Of a stretch of 64,000 nucleotides of DNA, positions 38,808 to 44,643 are shown piece after piece (position 1 is the stretch's first letter; each line of letters starts with the position of its first letter). A program made the position numbers and the translations under genes. The notes beneath the pieces were generated by a model. It did no database searches. It had not been told where the DNA came from and was given only the letters and a program-made list of their open reading frames with translations. This stretch comes from Thermoplasmata archaeon (GTDB lineage: Archaea > Thermoplasmatota > Thermoplasmata > Lutacidiplasmatales > UBA184), in assembly GCA_021816955.1 (NCBI GenBank), contig JAKAWP010000004.1, positions 117 to 64,116 on the forward strand. The letters are read 5' to 3'.

Positions 38808-39266
38808 GTGGCCGAGGAACCGCTCGACCCGATCCTGCTCCAGGTAACGATCCCGCTACCGGTGTCGATGATCTACGACGCGTTCGTCGAGGCCGGCAAG
38901 ATCACGGGATGGCTGGCCGACCGGGCGACCGTCGAGCTTCGCGTGGGCGGCGCCTATCGACTGGCGTGGGACGCGCCCGAGCGATTCGACAGTGACGGGA
39001 GAATCATCGCCTTCCACCGGGAGGTCGACCTCGACTTCACTTGGCAGTTCCCTCCCGCGTTCCGAGCGCTCGAGGGGGACCGCGCTGAACCGAGCCATGT
39101 CTACGTGCGGCTGCAGGAGTCGCCGGAAGGGATCGACGTCACTCTGGAACATGCCGGCTGGGCGAGCGGACCCCGCTGGGAAGACGCCCGGTCGTGGCAC
39201 TTCCATTTCTGGGACGAGCGGTTGCGGCGGCTCAAGGAGTACCTGATCGCCGAAGCCTACGGGTGA
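38808..39266 (+). CDS. SRPBCC/AHSA1 (START-like) family protein
   Basis: Trimmed to the GTG (VAEEPLDPILLQVTIPLPVSMIYDAFVEAGKITGWL...), a typical Aha1/BPI-like start. 152 aa. Confidence 0.75.
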   Translation: MAEEPLDPILLQVTIPLPVSMIYDAFVEAGKITGWLADRATVELRVGGAYRLAWDAPERFDSDGRIIAFHREVDLDFTWQFPPAFRALEGDRAEPSHVYVRLQESPEGIDVTLEHAGWASGPRWEDARSWHFHFWDERLRRLKEYLIAEAYG

Positions 39267-39472
39267 TGGGCGGCCGGCCCCGGTCGGCGGCCGATCGGGA
39301 GATACCCCCGGCACCCGTGCGCGCCGCAGGCGGAACAAGGGCCGACCGGGGCGAGTCGAAAGTTCGCGGAGCCTTCCACGGGTCGGACGACCATGTGGTC
39401 CGTCGGCCAGTGGCCGCAGCGGCAGCGCGCCGGAGCGTCGGCGCCCGGTCCGCCGGCCGTTCGGTCGGTCAC
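39257..39472 (-). CDS. possible Cys/His-rich zinc-binding mini-protein (71 aa)
   Basis: GTG start. Contains CRCGH...(31 aa)...CSACGAHGC. It exactly fills the gap between two confident genes. An AAAACGTTT patch lies about 29 nt upstream, and third positions are G/C-rich. Confidence 0.4.
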   Translation of the reverse strand: MTDRTAGGPGADAPARCRCGHWPTDHMVVRPVEGSANFRLAPVGPCSACGAHGCRGYLPIGRRPGPAAHHP

Positions 39473-39557
39473 GGGGGCGAAGAGGCGGGCCGAGGCAAAA
39501 CGTTTCGTGGCACGTCGCGTGCCCGTCCGGCGATCGCGAGCGAGGAAGACGACCGAG

Positions 39558-40271
39558 ATGACCGACGTACACGGCTGCTGGCTACCGGACGACCGACGCT
39601 ACAGCCTCGCGCACGACGTCTGGCTTCAGGCCACGGCGGACGGGACCGTTCGGCTCGGCCTGATGAGCCCGCTCGTGGCGTTCATGGGGATCGCCACGTC
39701 GTTTTCGTTTCGACCGGACGAGCCGGTCTCCGAACGAGGACGCAGCGTCGGGACGGTGGAGTCGGTCCGTTTCACGGGGGCCGTGCGACTGCCGCTCGCG
39801 GCCCGGGTGATCGAGCGAAACGGGCGACTCCTGTCGACGCCCCGGCTGCTAAACGACGATCCGTACGGCGAGGGGTGGGTCGTGCGCATCGCCCCGGTCT
39901 CGCCGTCGGACGTCGACCGGTACACCGTACCCGCCGAGGCGACCGTGGCCGAGTTGGACGAACGGATCCGGCGGCTCGGCATTCGCTGCTGGCCGAGGGT
40001 CCCCGACGTCGAGCTCGTCGAACTCGGACTCGAATGTTCGGCGATCTTCGCCAAGTTGGACGACGAGCTTGCGCGTCGGCCGAGCGGTTCGGCGGTCCTG
40101 CTCGTGACCGACGATCCGACCAGCCCGATCGAGATGGTCCGCTACACCGACCGGACGGGTCACGCGGTGCTCGCCCACCGAACGGAGGACGATCGCCATT
40201 ACTTCCTCGTTCGAAAGCGATCGGAGGGCGACCGAGGCGGCGTCGGGACGGACGGGCGACGTTTCGGATGA
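39558..40271 (+). CDS. GcvH-like domain (lipoyl Lys replaced by Arg) fused to a TusA-like sulfur-carrier domain
   Basis: The N-terminal half aligns with glycine-cleavage H protein (YSLAHDVWLQ..., GTVESVRFTGAV..., LLNDDPYGEGWVVRI). The C-terminal half aligns with TusA (VELGLECSAIF..., LLVTDDPTSPIEMVRYTDRTGHAVL, HYFLVRKR). Confidence 0.75.
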   Translation: MTDVHGCWLPDDRRYSLAHDVWLQATADGTVRLGLMSPLVAFMGIATSFSFRPDEPVSERGRSVGTVESVRFTGAVRLPLAARVIERNGRLLSTPRLLNDDPYGEGWVVRIAPVSPSDVDRYTVPAEATVAELDERIRRLGIRCWPRVPDVELVELGLECSAIFAKLDDELARRPSGSAVLLVTDDPTSPIEMVRYTDRTGHAVLAHRTEDDRHYFLVRKRSEGDRGGVGTDGRRFG

Positions 40272-40276
40272 TCCGG

Positions 40277-41131
40277 CTACTTCTCGATGGGGGTTCGCAC
40301 GAGATTCCCCCACTCGGTCCATGACCCGTCGTAGTTCCGCACGTCGGGATAGCCGAGCAGGTGCGTCAGGACGAACCAAGTGTGACTCGACCGCTCGCCG
40401 ATGCGGCAGTACGTGATCACCGGCTGGTCCGGTTTCACCCCGTGCCCCCGGTAGAGCGCCTCGAGCTCCTCGCGCGATTTGAACGTCCCGTCGTCCCGCA
40501 CCGCTTGGGCCCACGGGATGTTCTTCGCGCCGGGGATGTGGCCGCCGCGCTGGGCGTGCTCGGTCGGATACTCCGGGGGCGCCGTGATCTCGCCGGAGAA
40601 CTCCTTCGGGCCGCGAACGTCCACGAGCGCCCGGCGACCCGCCCGGACCTCGTCGAGCGCCGCGCGAACATCGTCGAGGAAGACTCGGAGCCTCGGATCG
40701 GGGGCCCCGGCCTTCGCGTGTCCGCGCGGAGGGTGCGGCGGCTCCTTCGTGAGCGGGCGGTCCTCGCTGATCCACTTCTTGCGGCCCCCGTTCATCAGCG
40801 CGAGCGATCGGAGACCGTAGTAGCTGAACACCCAGAAGGCGAACGCCGCGAACCAGTTGTTGAAATCGCCGTACAACACGATCCGCGTGTCGGGGTCGAC
40901 GCCGGCCCGCTCGAGGTACGCCGTGAGCGCATCGCGCGACAAGATGTCGCGTCGGACGGGGTCGTTGATATCCTTGCGCCAGTCGGCGAGCACCGCGCCG
41001 GGAATATGGCCGAGGTCGTAGTTCGCGGCGGGGTCGTAGTCGACCTCGATGATCCGCACCTTCGGGTCGTTAAGGTGCTCGGCGACCCACGACGTCTCGA
41101 CAACCGTCTCCGGATGCGCGTACTCGGCCAT
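40277..41131 (-). CDS. tandem-rhodanese sulfurtransferase (thiosulfate/3-mercaptopyruvate type)
   Basis: 284 aa with two rhodanese domains and the active-site loop CRIGERSSHTWF. Confidence 0.9.
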   Translation of the reverse strand: MAEYAHPETVVETSWVAEHLNDPKVRIIEVDYDPAANYDLGHIPGAVLADWRKDINDPVRRDILSRDALTAYLERAGVDPDTRIVLYGDFNNWFAAFAFWVFSYYGLRSLALMNGGRKKWISEDRPLTKEPPHPPRGHAKAGAPDPRLRVFLDDVRAALDEVRAGRRALVDVRGPKEFSGEITAPPEYPTEHAQRGGHIPGAKNIPWAQAVRDDGTFKSREELEALYRGHGVKPDQPVITYCRIGERSSHTWFVLTHLLGYPDVRNYDGSWTEWGNLVRTPIEK

Positions 41132-41679: not shown

Positions 41680-42459
41680 CTAGCCCGGGCGCCAGCGGTA
41701 GAGGCGGAGCGCGATCGTCACGCCGATGGCGGTGCTCAGCCCGAGAAGGCCGGCGTAGAGGAGCAGGGTGTCGGTCGCCGCAGGGGTGATGCCGAGGACC
41801 CCTTGGACGAGGAGCGCGGCGTAGGTCGTCGGAATGCCGTGCGCGACGAGCTGCCAAGCGGGCGGCAAGTAGCTGATCGGGTAGTACAGCGGGCTCAGCA
41901 TGCCGAGGACCGCGAACGTGAGGTTCCCGACCGGCCAGATCTCCCGTTGGGTCTTCACCCGACTCGAGATCGCGATGCCGATCGACGAGAAGAGGACCCA
42001 GAGCGCGAACAGCACGCCGAGCAGGATCAGCCACGCATAGAACGGCACCGGCGTCCCCCGGTCCCACTCGACGTACCCGAGGAGGGTGCCGAGGATGACG
42101 AGCGCCGGGATCATCGCGATCAGGTTGGAGAACGCGATCCCGAACAGGTAGCGGAGCCGCCCCATCGGACTCGCGACAAACAGGTCCTGGAGCGACGCCT
42201 CGATCCGCCAGGAGGCGCTGTCGCCGAGCACCCAGCTGCCGATGTTCTGCAGGGTGAACAGCATCGCCCCCACGATCTCGAGGGGCAACAGCTCGGCGGG
42301 GCTGATCAGGCTGAGGAAGTACAGGAAGATGAACGGAAGAAGGATCGGGGCGATCGCCACCGCCGGGTTCCGGCCGATCCACCGCCAGCCGATGATCAGG
42401 AAGGCGGGAAGGCTCCGGCCCTCCGTCGGAAGGTTGGCCGAGCGTACGGGCTGGGCCAC
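41680..42459 (-). CDS. ABC-2 type transporter permease
   Basis: 259 aa with six hydrophobic helices. It lies immediately after a paralogous permease and an ABC ATPase. Confidence 0.75.
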   Translation of the reverse strand: MAQPVRSANLPTEGRSLPAFLIIGWRWIGRNPAVAIAPILLPFIFLYFLSLISPAELLPLEIVGAMLFTLQNIGSWVLGDSASWRIEASLQDLFVASPMGRLRYLFGIAFSNLIAMIPALVILGTLLGYVEWDRGTPVPFYAWLILLGVLFALWVLFSSIGIAISSRVKTQREIWPVGNLTFAVLGMLSPLYYPISYLPPAWQLVAHGIPTTYAALLVQGVLGITPAATDTLLLYAGLLGLSTAIGVTIALRLYRWRPG

Positions 42460-42462
42460 GGT

Positions 42463-43227
42463 TCACGGCTCCCGGGCGGTCCGTCGGGCCCACAGCGCGG
42501 CGCCCACGAAGCACGCCATCACTTCGACCGCCAGGCTGCCCGAGGCGAGCCACACGCCGTTCGTCGATAAGGCGATCGTCCCGAGGGCGGATTGGACGAG
42601 CGCGGCGGCGGCGCTCGGGGGAAGGACCAGCGCGATCGGCTGGAGGGCGGGCGGAAACAGCGTGAGGGGATAGAAGACGGGAAAGAGCACGCCGAACAGG
42701 TTGAAGAACAGGCTCGAGTACGCCCAGATCGCCCGGTTCTCGCGGAAGAACGTCGAGAAGATGTAGCCGACCGACGCGCTGAACAGCCAAACGCCGGCGC
42801 TGACGGCGAACAACAGGAGCGCGAGGGACGGCGTGTACGCCACGACCCAGAGCGAGACCGCGGCGATCGCCACGACCGGCCAGATGTACACGAGCAGGAT
42901 CCCGAGCGCCATCCCGAGGAAGTACGCTTCCGGCTGGAGCGGGGAGGCAAAGTACAGGTCGTTCGACCGGTGGTCGATGCGCAAGTACGCCGCTTCGTTC
43001 AGCACCCGGTTCCCCATCGTGAACATGCTGAACACGATCGCTCCAACGAACGCGACCGGAAGCAATCCGGGGTTCAGGATCCAGACGAAGACGAGGAGCA
43101 CTCCCTGGACGACCATCGAGGTCGCCATCGCGAGGGTCTCGTGGCCTTGGACGAGCAGCTCCGTGAAGACGAACCACCGCAACCCCCGGAACGGGCGGGA
43201 CGGCGAAAGGACGACGTCACTCGTCAT
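42463..43227 (-). CDS. ABC-2 type transporter permease
   Basis: 254-aa polytopic protein. It overlaps the ATPase stop by 11 nt. Confidence 0.75.
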   Translation of the reverse strand: MTSDVVLSPSRPFRGLRWFVFTELLVQGHETLAMATSMVVQGVLLVFVWILNPGLLPVAFVGAIVFSMFTMGNRVLNEAAYLRIDHRSNDLYFASPLQPEAYFLGMALGILLVYIWPVVAIAAVSLWVVAYTPSLALLLFAVSAGVWLFSASVGYIFSTFFRENRAIWAYSSLFFNLFGVLFPVFYPLTLFPPALQPIALVLPPSAAAALVQSALGTIALSTNGVWLASGSLAVEVMACFVGAALWARRTAREP

Positions 43228-44143
43228 TGATCGAACGGCCCACTGAGCGCAGGAACGCCTCCTCGAGCGTCACCGGTCCGACCGTCGCCGCCTTCTCGTG
43301 CGCCACGGCGAAGTCGAGCAGCTCGCGGAGTCGGGACGGGTCGACGATCACGGTCACCGCCCCGCCGTCGGCGACGCACTCCCCGAACGACCGGAGCGTT
43401 TCTTCGAGACCGCGTCCGTCGGCGATCGTGACCTTGAGCGTGCCGCCGAGCGACCGCTTCAGCTCGTCCGCGGTCCCGGCCGTGAGGACCCGTCCGCCCT
43501 CGATGATGTACAGCCGGTCGCTGAGCACCTCGGCCTCGTCGAGGTAGTGGGTCGTGAGGAGGAGCGTCGACCCCTTGCGCGTGAGCCCCTTGAGGGAGTC
43601 CCAGACGCCTCGGCGGGCGAACGGGTCCATCCCGATCGACGGCTCGTCGAGGAAGAGAAGCGGCGCCTCGGTCGCGATCACCGTCGCGACCATCGTTCGC
43701 TGGCGCTGGCCGCCGGACAGCGTGATCGAGAGCCGGTCCGCGACGCTTTCGAGCCCCATCTGGGCGATGGCGGCCTCGCAGCGGCTCTTCGCCGTCTCTC
43801 GCCCGATCCCCCGGGCGCGCAGGTAGGTGTAGATCTGCTCGCGGGGCGTCAGATGGAAGAACGGCTTGCCTTCTTGGGGAACGACCGCGATGTACGGCCG
43901 CGCCCGCTCGGGATGACGGTCGGCATCCTCTCCGAAGATCTCGATCGTCCCCGACGTCGGCCGCAACAGCGTGGAGGCGATCTTGAGGAACGTCGTCTTG
44001 CCGGCCCCGTTGCGGCCGAGCAGGCTCACCCGCTCCCCGCGACGGACCTCGATCGATACCCCGCGCAGCGCCTCGACGGGCGGAGTTCCTCGCGAGTGGT
44101 AGGTCTTGCGGAGATCGACGCTCCGCAAGGCTTCTTCGCTCAC
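43217..44143 (-). CDS. ABC transporter ATP-binding protein (ABC-2/DrrA-like exporter type)
   Basis: Contains Walker A GRNGAGKTT, the signature LSGGQRQR and Walker B LLFLDEPS. Trimmed to a GTG preceded by GGAGGGAGGG. Confidence 0.9.
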   Translation of the reverse strand: MSEEALRSVDLRKTYHSRGTPPVEALRGVSIEVRRGERVSLLGRNGAGKTTFLKIASTLLRPTSGTIEIFGEDADRHPERARPYIAVVPQEGKPFFHLTPREQIYTYLRARGIGRETAKSRCEAAIAQMGLESVADRLSITLSGGQRQRTMVATVIATEAPLLFLDEPSIGMDPFARRGVWDSLKGLTRKGSTLLLTTHYLDEAEVLSDRLYIIEGGRVLTAGTADELKRSLGGTLKVTIADGRGLEETLRSFGECVADGGAVTVIVDPSRLRELLDFAVAHEKAATVGPVTLEEAFLRSVGRSINDE

Positions 44144-44247
44144 GACGCGCGACCCTCCCTCACGAATCGACGGCCGGAACCGGCCGCGCCTTCCACGGCG
44201 TCGGCCGTCTCGCGGCGATCGCCGCCCAGAGAAGGTTGCCCGAGCGC

Positions 44248-44643
44248 TTATCCACCGCAGCCGCAGCCGCCGCCGTTCGCCGAGCTCGACCCGCACGAAC
44301 CGCAGCCGCCCGTCATCCCGGCTTCGTCGGGGGTGGGGAGCTTCGGATTCGTGATCTGGAAGCCGGACTCCTCAAGCCCTTCGATGTAGTCGATGACCGC
44401 TCCATCGACCATCGGCGCGCTCGCCGGGTCGACGAGGAGCGTGAGCCCGTCGCGCTTGACCACGAGATCGTCCTTGCGGGGTTTCGCGAACGCCAGTCCG
44501 AACTGGACGGCCCCCGCCCCGCCCCCGCAGCACCCACCGCCCCCCGGTTGGGCGTAGACCCGAATGCCGACGTCGGGGGTCTGGCCCCGGATCAGGCTCT
44601 GAATCTGGCTCACGGCCGCCGGCCGCATCTCAATCTGCACCAT
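44248..44643 (-). CDS. HesB/IscA-family iron-sulfur cluster insertion protein
   Basis: 131 aa. It has an IscA-like fold start (MVQIEMRPAAVSQIQSLI), a GGGGCCGGG segment and a C-terminal Cys-Gly cluster (GGCGSCG...GGGCGCGG). Confidence 0.85.
   Translation of the reverse strand: MVQIEMRPAAVSQIQSLIRGQTPDVGIRVYAQPGGGGCCGGGAGAVQFGLAFAKPRKDDLVVKRDGLTLLVDPASAPMVDGAVIDYIEGLEESGFQITNPKLPTPDEAGMTGGCGSCGSSSANGGGCGCGG

What the first reader, a model, noticed from the sequence alone, without database searches (positions are those of the whole stretch)
38808..41131. Candidate sulfur-relay cluster built around a GcvH-like/TusA fusion whose lipoyl lysine is replaced by arginine
The N-terminal half of ORF 39558-40271 aligns with glycine-cleavage H protein. 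At the lipoylation site it reads VESVRFTG instead of the canonical ESVKA, so it cannot be lipoylated. The C-terminal half aligns along its length with TusA (LGLECSAIF...LLVTDDPTSPIEMVRYTDRTGHAVL). The carrier cysteine is retained, but CPxP has changed to CSAI. A tandem-rhodanese sulfurtransferase (CRIGERS active site) is convergent to it. An SRPBCC protein and a Cys/His mini-protein lie immediately upstream. Lipoate-binding GcvH-like proteins, TusA and rhodaneses cooperate in known sulfur-oxidation and thiolation relays. A covalent GcvH(K-to-R)-TusA fusion looks like an undescribed variant.
Basis: partly seen in the sequence, partly recalled or inferred. Interest (0 to 1): 0.6.

Follow-up and report, generated by a model that had tools for sequence, protein, structure and literature searches.

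The report
Lysine-less LbpA-TusA fusion beside rhodanese
An acid-mine-drainage archaeon encodes an unstudied two-domain sulfur-carrier protein next to an ordinary thiosulfate-type sulfurtransferase; the carrier has lost its lipoate-bearing lysine but keeps three cysteines, so sulfur is probably handed on by cysteines alone.

Summary
ORF 39558-40271 (237 aa) has a GcvH-fold domain (Pfam E 1.9e-17) and a TusA-fold domain (E 4e-6 whole protein; 29.1 bits alone, cut-off 28.6). The AlphaFold model has pLDDT 92.

Arg71 occupies the lipoyl-lysine column, and this domain contains no lysine. The N-domain is LbpA-type rather than GcvH-type. It keeps the two signature cysteines of sHdr lipoate-binding proteins (Cys7 and Cys144; Cys7/Cys145 in Thioalkalivibrio LbpA2). 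It aligns end to end with genuine LbpAs (hhalign E 4e-46).

Cys7, Arg71, Cys144 and Cys160 are invariant in 120 close relatives. In 41 distant fusions from several archaeal lineages, the TusA cysteine is 41/41 and the pair 40/41. One protein lost both pair cysteines. The lysine site switches between K and R repeatedly.

An orthologous tandem rhodanese (invariant CRIGER loop) adjoins the fusion in 7 of 9 distinct lineages. This genome shows no sHdr or DsrE.

The best reading is a lipoate-independent cysteine sulfur relay, function untested. The SRPBCC gene and the Cys/His mini-gene are real but specific to the close clade. I found no paper on the fusion. This scan has reported the same pair in at least 21 other genomes.

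The parts
39558..40271 (+). LbpA-like/TusA-like fusion protein, 237 aa, with exactly three cysteines. Key codons: Cys7 39576-39578, Arg71 39768-39770, Cys144 39987-39989, Cys160 40035-40037.
   Evidence: Pfam hits. AF2 pLDDT 92. Foldseek matches to GcvH and TusA. 120/120 conservation of C7, R71, C144 and C160. The start codon is set by orthologues that begin ME(I/V)xGC.
39558..40001 (+). N-terminal LbpA-type domain, residues 1-148. GcvH fold with the Cys7/Cys144 pair, Arg71 at the lipoyl-lysine position and no lysine in the domain.
   Evidence: hhalign against genuine LbpAs: probability 100%, E 4e-46, with C7-C7, R71-K71 and C144-C145 aligned. LbpA cysteine pair described in the literature. 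PDB profile alignment. Lysine count 0.
40002..40220 (+). C-terminal TusA-like domain, residues 149-221. Cys160 starts helix 1; the motif is ECSAI instead of CPxP; the DDPTSPIE motif is kept.
   Evidence: Pfam TusA 29.1 bits for the C-half. NCBIfam TusA E 9.4e-4. Foldseek 3lvj_C TMt 0.85. Cys160 conserved in 161/161 sequences.
40277..41131 (-). Tandem-domain rhodanese, 284 aa, thiosulfate-sulfurtransferase type. Its single cysteine, Cys242 (codon 40406-40408), lies in CRIGERS. It is convergent with the fusion, and only 5 bp separate the two stop codons.
   Evidence: Pfam Rhodanese, two stretches, E 5.7e-34. Orthologues beside fusions in other phyla are 56-80% identical. Genome survey.
39257..39472 (-). 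Cys/His mini-protein gene, 71 aa, divergent from the fusion gene. Invariant pattern: R-C-x-C-G-H-x4-H ... F-x-L-x-P-x-G-P-C-x-x-C-x(3-4)-C. Found only in the close clade.
   Evidence: Found in the same place and orientation in L001, L003, L004, L027, L028 and L029. Coding signature. No known family or fold.
38808..39266 (+). SRPBCC/AHSA1-family protein, 152 aa. Upstream neighbour in the close clade only. Its 3' end overlaps the mini-gene's 3' end by 10 nt.
   Evidence: Pfam AHSA1 E 7.9e-16. Present in L001, L004 and L003 (apparently frameshifted in L003), absent from the distant loci.
39473..39557 (.). 85-bp divergent spacer between the mini-gene and the fusion gene. It holds an AAAACGTTT box at 39497-39505 (AAAAGGTT in orthologues), possibly a shared TATA-like element.
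   Evidence: Sequence. Alignment of six orthologous spacers shows a loosely conserved A-rich box and little else. The promoter role is inferred only.
41680..44146 (-). ABC-2 type exporter: permeases 41680-42459 and 42463-43227, DrrA-like ATPase 43217-44146. A recurrent neighbour whose link to the pair is unproven.
   Evidence: The same three genes follow the rhodanese and SUI1 in L001, L003 and L004. Probable orthologues lie directly downstream of the fusion in two Aigarchaeota-type loci (L023, L024): ATPases 39-44% identical, permeases 29-33%.

Best explanation
The gene pair encodes a lipoate-independent, cysteine-based sulfur relay.

The tandem rhodanese forms a persulfide on Cys242 in its CRIGERS loop, from thiosulfate or another sulfane-sulfur donor. 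It passes that sulfur to the fusion protein. Cys160 of the TusA-like domain is the primary acceptor. The covalently attached LbpA-like domain has given up the lipoyl arm (Arg71, no lysine in the domain). It offers its Cys7/Cys144 pair as a second thiol/disulfide site that takes over, resolves or hands on the sulfur.

Shown here: both folds, the residue pattern and its conservation, the LbpA-type signature, and the conserved rhodanese neighbourhood. Inferred: every chemical step, the direction of transfer, and the final acceptor.

This genome shows no sHdr complex and no DsrE. The relay therefore more likely serves sulfur assimilation, biosynthesis or handling of sulfane sulfur than sHdr-type sulfur oxidation.
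For: 1. Both domains are statistically and structurally supported.
2. The protein has exactly three cysteines. Cys7, Cys144 and Cys160 are 120/120 in the close clade. In 41 distant fusions, Cys160 is 41/41 and Cys7 and Cys144 are each 40/41. The single exception, P0172, lost both pair cysteines together.
3. Cys7/Cys144 correspond to LbpA's signature pair. Cao et al. 2018 (PMC6067878) describe two conserved cysteines near the termini that GcvH lacks. In the 2026 preprint they are positions 7 and 145 of TK90 LbpA2, modelled within disulfide distance. hhalign against LbpAs gives E 4e-46 with these columns aligned. The LbpAs used lie in real shdr/lipS/slpl clusters.
4. The lipoyl site is not held as lysine. 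It is R in 26, K in 11, V in 2, T in 1 and S in 1 of the distant fusions, with K and R interleaved in at least five sister pairs. Arg also occurs in genomes of 33% GC that use 12-14 lysines elsewhere in the domain, so it is not a GC artefact.
5. A rhodanese orthologue adjoins the fusion in the window clade and in Thermoprotei, Bathyarchaeia, another Thermoproteota lineage, Sysuiplasma, Aigarchaeota and one unnamed lineage. In Bathyarchaeia the same-strand order is rhodanese, fusion, DsrE-like, TusA, cysteine desulfurase.
6. In 301 sampled genomes of the phylum, a full-length fusion occurs in 4. All 4 have the rhodanese orthologue next to it. Only 4 of the other 297 have that orthologue.
7. Published work shows rhodanese-TusA sulfur exchange and co-purification of TusA with LbpA (PMC11094781).
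8. Complex prediction of rhodanese with the fusion gave weak support: score 0.60, best control 0.00. The mark was reached by 58 of 80 solved complexes and 2 of 110 mismatched pairs. At 0.60 or under, only 7 of those 80 solved complexes reached it, and so did both mismatches that passed. The runs agree in at least 94% of contacts and partner pLDDT is at least 86.
Against: - There is no biochemical evidence for any member of the family.
- The TusA motif lacks both prolines of CPxP, and the Pfam score is at the threshold (27.0 bits whole protein, 29.1 bits domain alone, cut-off 28.6).
- The genes are convergent here, so they are not co-transcribed.
- Two lineages (Nitrosocosmicus L018, Calditenuaceae L023) have the fusion without an adjacent rhodanese.
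- One near-complete relative (G206) has the rhodanese orthologue without a fusion.
- I could not read model coordinates, so the distance between Cys160 and the Cys7/Cys144 pair is unknown.
- The complex prediction is only weak support.
- Genomes of one family are not independent observations.
Confidence: 0.55

Rival explanations
1. The chemistry is the same, but the role is housekeeping. The pair feeds sulfur from cysteine desulfurase or thiosulfate into biosynthesis (tRNA thiolation, molybdenum cofactor, Fe-S clusters). A possible route is the rhodanese domain of the genome's MoeZ/Uba4-like E1 enzyme, as TUM1 feeds Uba4 in eukaryotes and TusA serves IscS in E. coli.
For: - The family occurs in metabolically diverse archaea, including ammonia oxidisers and Bathyarchaeia.
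- The Bathyarchaeia operon ends in TusA and a cysteine desulfurase.
- This genome has a ThiF-rhodanese fusion on contig C22 and several cysteine desulfurases. No sHdr or DsrE was found.
- Neighbours in some loci are translation or tRNA genes: SUI1, TiaS, TrmO.
- An A-type Fe-S carrier gene lies at 44248-44643.
Against: No direct link to any thiolation enzyme was found. The neighbouring translation genes differ between lineages and may be chance. Most archaea make these cofactors without this fusion: 297 of 301 sampled genomes of the phylum lack it.
Confidence: 0.25
2. The three invariant cysteines together bind a metal ion or an Fe-S cluster. The protein would then be a metallochaperone, redox sensor or cluster carrier rather than a persulfide carrier.
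For: - The protein has exactly three conserved cysteines.
- Many stand-alone LbpA-type relatives end in a CxxC motif, which gives them three cysteines as well.
- His202 is present in 107 of 120 close relatives.
- In one lineage the pair sits inside a complex I operon. Here an A-type Fe-S carrier gene lies nearby.
Against: His202 is not conserved in distant fusions, where N, H, Q and Y occur. A fourth ligand is not evident. Cys160 sits exactly where TusA carries its persulfide. The conserved neighbour is a sulfurtransferase, not a metal-handling protein. P0172 keeps Cys160 while lacking the other two cysteines.
Confidence: 0.1
3. The fusion is a non-catalytic adaptor or regulator. It would be a decayed carrier that merely docks onto the rhodanese or the neighbouring ABC-2 exporter and tunes its activity.
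For: The lipoyl lysine and the CPxP prolines are both lost. An ABC-2 exporter recurs nearby in two phyla.
Against: Decay does not explain three cysteines that are invariant over 161 sequences from several phyla, nor the confident compact model (pLDDT 92, pTM 0.82).
Confidence: 0.07
4. The N-domain is still a cofactor carrier. It would be lipoylated, or modified in some other way, at another residue or on Arg71 itself.
For: Eleven of 41 distant fusions keep Lys at the site. The genome has two LplA-like genes.
Against: Residues 1-148 of this protein contain no lysine. Arg71 is 120/120 in the clade. Lipoate ligases require the lysine amine (established knowledge; Cao 2018). The genome has a separate canonical GcvH with VLESVKT for its ligases.
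Confidence: 0.03

Closest known systems
[quoted passage not shown] 2018, PMC6067878; bioRxiv 10.64898/2026.10.01.755906)
   Same: GcvH-like fold of about 148 residues. One conserved cysteine near the N-terminus and one near the C-terminus (7 and 144 here; 7 and 145 in TK90 LbpA2). Less acidic than GcvH (pI 6.7 for this domain, 4.2-5.6 for the canonical GcvH sample). End-to-end profile match, E 4e-46. A functional link to TusA and rhodaneses.
   Different: The lysine that is strictly conserved in 95 LbpAs is Arg here, and is K, R, T, V or S across the fusion family. The domain is covalently fused to a TusA-like domain. It is not encoded with shdr, slpl(AB) or lipS1/S2 genes, and this genome shows no sHdr or DsrE. 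The tree does not resolve whether the fusions are sister to LbpA.
TusA sulfur-carrier protein (PF01206; E. coli TusA, PDB 3lvj and 1dcj)
   Same: Two-layer alpha/beta fold (TMt 0.85, rmsd 1.4). The conserved cysteine lies at the start of helix 1, in the same column as Cys19 of E. coli TusA. The DDP(T/A) motif is kept. Rhodanese-to-TusA transfer is known from sulfur oxidisers (PMC11094781).
   Different: CPxP is replaced by C-S-A-(I/V). The sequence score is at the Pfam threshold. It is a domain of a larger protein. It is the only TusA homologue detected in this genome, with no DsrE/TusBCD partner.
GcvH, H protein of the glycine cleavage system
   Same: Fold (TMt 0.90-0.92 to 1onl and 3a8i). 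The ES-x-[K/R] hairpin and the NxxPY..GW motifs.
   Different: No lipoyl lysine. An extra cysteine pair. Not acidic. The genome has a separate canonical GcvH (contig C35, 126 bits, VLESVKT, no cysteine). Canonical GcvHs form their own well-supported clade (99/97).
Tandem-domain thiosulfate sulfurtransferases (rhodanese; CRxGx[R/T] active-site loop)
   Same: The neighbouring gene has two rhodanese domains. The N-terminal domain lacks a cysteine and the C-terminal domain carries CRIGERS.
   Different: Nothing unusual in the enzyme itself. What is particular is its tight, cross-phylum linkage to the fusion gene.

Membership tests
LbpA (sHdr-associated lipoate-binding protein) | GcvH-like single-domain fold | tested here: met
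   Foldseek TMt 0.90-0.92 to GcvH structures. hhalign to LbpA alignment A5: probability 100%, E 4e-46 over residues 1-147.
LbpA (sHdr-associated lipoate-binding protein) | Two conserved cysteines, one near the N-terminus and one near the C-terminus, which GcvH lacks | tested here: met
   Cys7 and Cys144 are 120/120 in the close clade and 40/41 each in distant fusions. They align with Cys7/Cys145 of LbpAs. The feature is defined.
LbpA (sHdr-associated lipoate-binding protein) | Strictly conserved lipoyl-attachment lysine | tested here: not met
   Arg71 is in that column and is 120/120 in the clade. Residues 1-148 contain no lysine.
LbpA (sHdr-associated lipoate-binding protein) | Encoded in or beside an shdr cluster, with sLpl(AB)/LipS1/LipS2 | tested here: not met
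   No Hdr gene lies in any of the 10 fusion loci. The own genome (93.5% complete) has one CCG protein, which lies beside succinate dehydrogenase genes by my reading of their N-termini, and no DsrE. In contrast, the stand-alone relatives L083 and L065 sit in shdr/lipS/slpl clusters.
TusA (PF01206) | TusA fold with the conserved cysteine at the N-terminus of helix 1 | tested here: met
   3lvj_C TMt 0.85, rmsd 1.4. Cys160 begins helix 160-172. Conserved in 161/161 sequences.
TusA (PF01206) | Sequence score over the curated cut-off | tested here: inconclusive
   27.0 bits for the whole protein and 29.1 bits for residues 125-237, against a cut-off of 28.6. 29.7 bits in the genome search.
TusA (PF01206) | CPxP motif around the cysteine | tested here: not met
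   The motif is ECSAI here. In distant fusions the residue after Cys is S in 18, A in 7, N in 6 and P in 6.
TusA (PF01206) | Accepts and donates sulfane sulfur as a Cys persulfide | not testable with these tools
   Needs persulfidation assays with mass spectrometry.
GcvH (glycine cleavage H protein) | Lipoyl lysine in the ESVK hairpin | tested here: not met
   VESVRFTG.
GcvH (glycine cleavage H protein) | Groups with canonical GcvH in a tree | tested here: not met
   Eight canonical GcvHs, including this genome's own, form a separate clade with 99/97 support.
Tandem rhodanese / thiosulfate sulfurtransferase (neighbour gene) | Two rhodanese domains, with a CRxGx[R/T] loop in the second | tested here: met
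   Pfam finds two stretches, E 5.7e-34. CRIGER is invariant in 10 orthologues.

The most novel reading that the evidence does not exclude
The fusion is a natural lipoate-free LbpA. Its Cys7/Cys144 dithiol would do, on the protein itself, the job that the dihydrolipoyl arm does in rhodanese-lipoate chemistry. Together with the TusA cysteine and the dedicated rhodanese it would form a self-contained machine. That machine would turn thiosulfate or persulfide sulfur into a usable form (sulfide or a carrier-bound persulfide) without sHdr. If so, it would also reveal the still unknown function of the conserved cysteine pair of all LbpA proteins.
Probability: 0.25. Interest if true: 0.7.

Novelty: new variant of a known kind. 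Interest (0 to 1): 0.55.

Why it matters
LbpA, TusA and rhodaneses are known partners in cytoplasmic sulfur oxidation, but the role of LbpA's two conserved cysteines is still open. The 2026 preprint shows only that they are not needed for recognition by the ligase.

In this archaeal family, evolution removed the lipoate, kept the cysteine pair, welded the domain to TusA and kept a dedicated rhodanese beside it. This happened in organisms without sHdr. The family is therefore a ready-made test case for what the cysteine pair does on its own.

It also points to a sulfur-trafficking route in Thermoplasmatota, Thermoprotei, Bathyarchaeia, Aigarchaeota-type lineages and some ammonia-oxidising archaea that annotation pipelines currently label 'glycine cleavage system H protein' or 'hypothetical'.

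Tried and rejected
- **Locus search with the diverse alignment:** The search for related loci with A2 failed for lack of a conserved stretch. I used look-ups by identity and the genome search instead.
- **Expression:** no RNA holder was listed. Only three DNA runs of one mine-drainage study hold the stretch.
- **Mini-protein:** no Pfam or NCBIfam hit. The protein atlas gave only unnamed clusters at 0.90. The AF2 model has pLDDT 67.5, with a beta-hairpin between Cys/His knuckles. Foldseek found no match with E below 2.8. Its fold and function stay open.
- **sHdr context:** rejected for this genome. The only CCG-domain protein lies next to genes I read from their N-termini as succinate dehydrogenase, and no DsrE was found.
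- **GC artefact for Lys-to-Arg:** rejected.
- **GcvH-like hits elsewhere in the phylum:** hits of profile A2 covering positions 2-140 in other Thermoplasmatota are ordinary GcvH genes without the N-terminal cysteine. They are not relatives of interest.
- **Tree of N-domains:** it separates canonical GcvH cleanly. It does not resolve whether the fusions are sister to LbpA (LbpA clade 85/38; fusions in at least two groups).
Full report
**1. What is in the sequence**

The window is high in G+C (about 69%). Its genome is an uncultured Thermoplasmata archaeon from mine drainage: 1.42 Mb, 93.5% complete.

Between 38808 and 41131 lie four genes:
- 38808-39266 (+): an SRPBCC/AHSA1 protein, Pfam E 7.9e-16.
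- 39257-39472 (-): a 71-codon Cys/His-rich ORF.
- 39558-40271 (+): the 237-aa fusion protein.
- 40277-41131 (-): a two-domain rhodanese, E 5.7e-34, convergent with the fusion. Its stop codon lies 5 bp from the fusion's. Its single cysteine sits in YCRIGERS.

The longer reading frame that opens at 39393 is not used. More than 100 orthologues start at the position of 39558 with ME(I/V)xGC.

**2. The fusion protein**

- Pfam GCV_H matches residues 14-128 (E 1.9e-17). TusA matches residues 157-220 (E 4e-6). The TusA score is 27.0 bits for the whole protein and 29.1 bits for the C-terminal half alone, against a cut-off of 28.6.
- A profile of 30 orthologues finds solved GcvH structures at E 2e-18 and E. 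coli TusA at E 5e-4. The printed alignment places Arg71 of VESVRFTG under the lipoyl lysine of VESVK.
- AlphaFold2 gives pLDDT 92 and pTM 0.82.
- Foldseek matches GcvH at TMt 0.90-0.92 (rmsd 1.4-1.6) and TusA (3lvj_C) at TMt 0.85 (rmsd 1.4).
- Cys160 opens helix 160-172, exactly where TusA carries its persulfide cysteine. The motif is ECSAI rather than CPxP.
- The protein has just three cysteines: 7, 144 and 160. Residues 1-148 contain no lysine.

**3. The N-domain is LbpA-type**

Cao et al. (2018, PMC6067878) describe the lipoate-binding proteins (LbpA) of the sHdr sulfur-oxidation pathway. [quoted passage not shown] A 2026 preprint (10.64898/2026.10.01.755906) gives their positions in Thioalkalivibrio LbpA2 as 7 and 145. 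It models them within disulfide distance and shows they are dispensable for recognition by the ligase, so their function remains open.

Evidence gathered here:
- After other fusions, the best hits of an exhaustive profile search are stand-alone proteins of about 147 aa. They have the N-terminal GC, ESGKWVGP and a C-terminal cysteine, often flanked by glycines or in a CxxC motif.
- I confirmed that such proteins are genuine LbpAs. In a Hyphomicrobiaceae locus the gene follows a Fer4/CCG protein, two radical-SAM genes, an FAD protein and an LplA-like ligase. In an Acidiferrobacteraceae locus it follows CCG and ferredoxin-like genes.
- Profile-profile comparison of the fusions with these LbpAs gives probability 100% and E 4e-46. 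Cys7 aligns with Cys7, Arg71 with Lys71, and Cys144 with Cys145.
- The N-domain is less acidic than GcvH. Its pI is 6.7 here and the median for fusions is 6.3. LbpA-type proteins have median 5.3 and canonical GcvH 4.7. This is the direction the preprint reports for LbpA.
- A maximum-likelihood tree puts canonical GcvHs, including this genome's own (contig C35, VLESVKT, no cysteine), in a separate clade (99/97). It leaves the relation between fusions and LbpAs unresolved.

**4. Conservation**

- In 120 close relatives (54-61% identical, mostly labelled Thermoplasmata MAGs), Cys7, Arg71, Cys144 and Cys160 are invariant.
- The exhaustive search also found about 30 clusters (at 50% identity) of full-length fusions. 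Named sources are Sysuiplasma, Methanomassiliicoccales, Thermoprotei, Bathyarchaeia, Nitrosocosmicus, and Caldarchaeum and other Aigarchaeota-type archaea. One MAG is labelled Saccharimonadales and shares a 90% cluster with Thermoproteota sequences.
- In 41 such distant fusions, Cys160 is 41/41, and Cys7 and Cys144 are 40/41 each. One protein, P0172, lost both together, which fits the two acting as a pair.
- The lysine site is R in 26, K in 11, V in 2, T in 1 and S in 1. K and R alternate within at least five well-supported sister pairs.
- Lipoylation needs lysine, so repeated K/R exchange argues that the family as a whole does not depend on lipoate. A basic residue at the hairpin tip is merely preferred.
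- Arg is not a by-product of high G+C. Genomes of 33% G+C also have Arg there while using 12-14 lysines elsewhere in the domain.

**5. Neighbourhood**

In the close clade the order is fixed: SRPBCC, mini-gene (opposite strand), fusion, then on the other strand rhodanese, SUI1, two ABC-2 permeases and an ABC ATPase.

Beyond the clade only the rhodanese is consistently kept:
- Convergent with the fusion in Thermoprotei (L019), in another Thermoproteota lineage where the pair sits inside a complex I operon (L021), and in Sysuiplasma (L022).
- Upstream on the same strand in an Aigarchaeota-type locus (L024), an unnamed lineage (L025) and Bathyarchaeia (L020).
- In L020 the same-strand order is rhodanese, fusion, DsrE-like, TusA, cysteine desulfurase.
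- Nitrosocosmicus (L018) and Calditenuaceae (L023) have no rhodanese nearby.

These rhodaneses are orthologues, 56-80% identical with CRIGER invariant. They are far better conserved than the fusions themselves.

In 301 sampled genomes of the phylum, a full-length fusion was found in four, all in the window's family. All four have the rhodanese orthologue adjacent. Only four of the other 297 have that orthologue at E of 1e-90 or better, three of them on short contigs of incomplete genomes. These genomes are kin, so the count is descriptive, not a statistical test.

An ABC-2 exporter recurs beside the fusion in L023 and L024. Its ATPases are 39-44% identical to the window's, against 27-31% for an unrelated ABC ATPase. 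Its family assignment is generic, DrrA-like.

**6. Genome context**

- The fusion is the only TusA homologue over the cut-off.
- No DsrE was found.
- The only CCG-domain protein lies beside two genes that I read as succinate dehydrogenase subunits from their N-terminal sequences. An sHdr complex is therefore not evident.
- The genome has a canonical GcvH, two LplA-like genes, several cysteine desulfurases and a ThiF-rhodanese (MoeZ/Uba4-like) fusion.

**7. Mechanism**

The best-supported reading is a cysteine-only sulfur relay. Rhodanese Cys242 persulfide passes sulfur to TusA-domain Cys160, and from there to the Cys7/Cys144 pair of the LbpA-like domain or to an external acceptor.

Rhodanese-TusA exchange and TusA-LbpA association are documented in bacteria (PMC11094781).

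A complex prediction of the rhodanese with the fusion gave weak support: score 0.60, best control 0.00. The mark was reached by 58 of 80 solved complexes and 2 of 110 mismatched pairs. At 0.60 or under, only 7 of those 80 solved complexes reached it, and so did both mismatches that passed. The runs agree in at least 94% of contacts and partner pLDDT is at least 86.

The chemistry, the direction of transfer and the end acceptor are inferred. Without sHdr or DsrE, an assimilatory, biosynthetic or sulfane-sulfur-handling role is more likely than dissimilatory oxidation. Rivals are a metal or cluster site on the three cysteines, a non-catalytic adaptor, and residual cofactor carriage.

**8. The mini-gene and the SRPBCC gene**

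The mini-ORF is a real gene. Third-position differences number 367, against 191 and 187 at positions one and two. Synonymous codon changes are 209 in frame, against 50 and 59 out of frame.

Seven orthologues share R-C-x-C-G-H-x4-H ... F-x-L-x-P-x-G-P-C-x-x-C-x(3-4)-C. The gene always lies divergent from the fusion gene and occurs only in the close clade. No family or fold match was found.

The 85-bp spacer holds a loosely conserved AAAA(C/G)GTT box. The SRPBCC gene is likewise specific to the clade.

**9. Novelty**

Five full-text searches found no paper on an LbpA- or GcvH-TusA fusion. Only six papers mention both GcvH and TusA, and none of their titles or abstracts concerns a fusion. Automatic pipelines do see both domains; IMG names some members 'glycine cleavage system H lipoate-binding protein/TusA-related sulfurtransferase'.

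I reached the LbpA reading from the literature before consulting earlier notes. The scan's own records then showed that the same pair has been reported and read the same way in at least 21 other genomes.

I rate it a new variant of a known kind, of moderate interest.

Noticed in passing
window 39257-39472 (-): Conserved 60-70 aa mini-protein with five invariant Cys and two invariant His. It always lies divergent from the fusion gene in the close clade, was missed by gene callers in all related contigs, and has no known family or fold.
   Followed up: partly
L021:4564-7102: In one Thermoproteota lineage the fusion-rhodanese pair is inserted inside a complex I (nuo) operon. It lies between the ferredoxin-like subunit (Fer4 domains; nuoI-type) and the Oxidored_q3 subunit (nuoJ-type), and the fusion start overlaps the upstream gene by 4 nt.
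   Followed up: no
L020:2165-5899: Bathyarchaeia operon on one strand: tandem rhodanese, LbpA-like/TusA fusion (with a CPGP motif), DsrE-like protein, stand-alone TusA, cysteine desulfurase. This is the most complete sulfur-relay context seen for the family.
   Followed up: partly
window 41680-44146 (-); L023:5717-7391; L024:5675-7335: A DrrA-like ABC-2 exporter recurs next to the fusion in Thermoplasmata and in two Aigarchaeota-type lineages (ATPases 39-44% identical). In L024 the ATPase start overlaps the fusion stop by 4 nt. The substrate is unknown.
   Followed up: partly
G000 contig C22:2373-3449 (-): A ThiF/MoeB domain and a rhodanese domain lie in one open frame (MoeZ/Uba4-like E1 enzyme). 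It is a possible downstream acceptor of relay sulfur.
   Followed up: no
window 44248-44643 (-): A-type Fe-S carrier (IscA/ErpA family, TIGR00049 63 bits) directly upstream of the ABC ATPase gene. The same arrangement occurs in L004 but not in L001 or L003.
   Followed up: no
L003:5107-5715: The SRPBCC gene of this relative appears frameshifted: gene callers placed opposite-strand genes over it, yet the conserved C-terminus is still readable. This may be an assembly error or a pseudogene. The mini-gene next to it is intact.
   Followed up: no
proteins P0177, P0181, P0185, P0189, P0201, P0204 and others: Many stand-alone LbpA-type proteins end in a CxxC motif (CFRC, CMRC, CVHC) rather than a single glycine-flanked cysteine. 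With Cys7 this gives them three cysteines. I saw no mention of this variant in the passages of the LbpA papers that I read.
   Followed up: no
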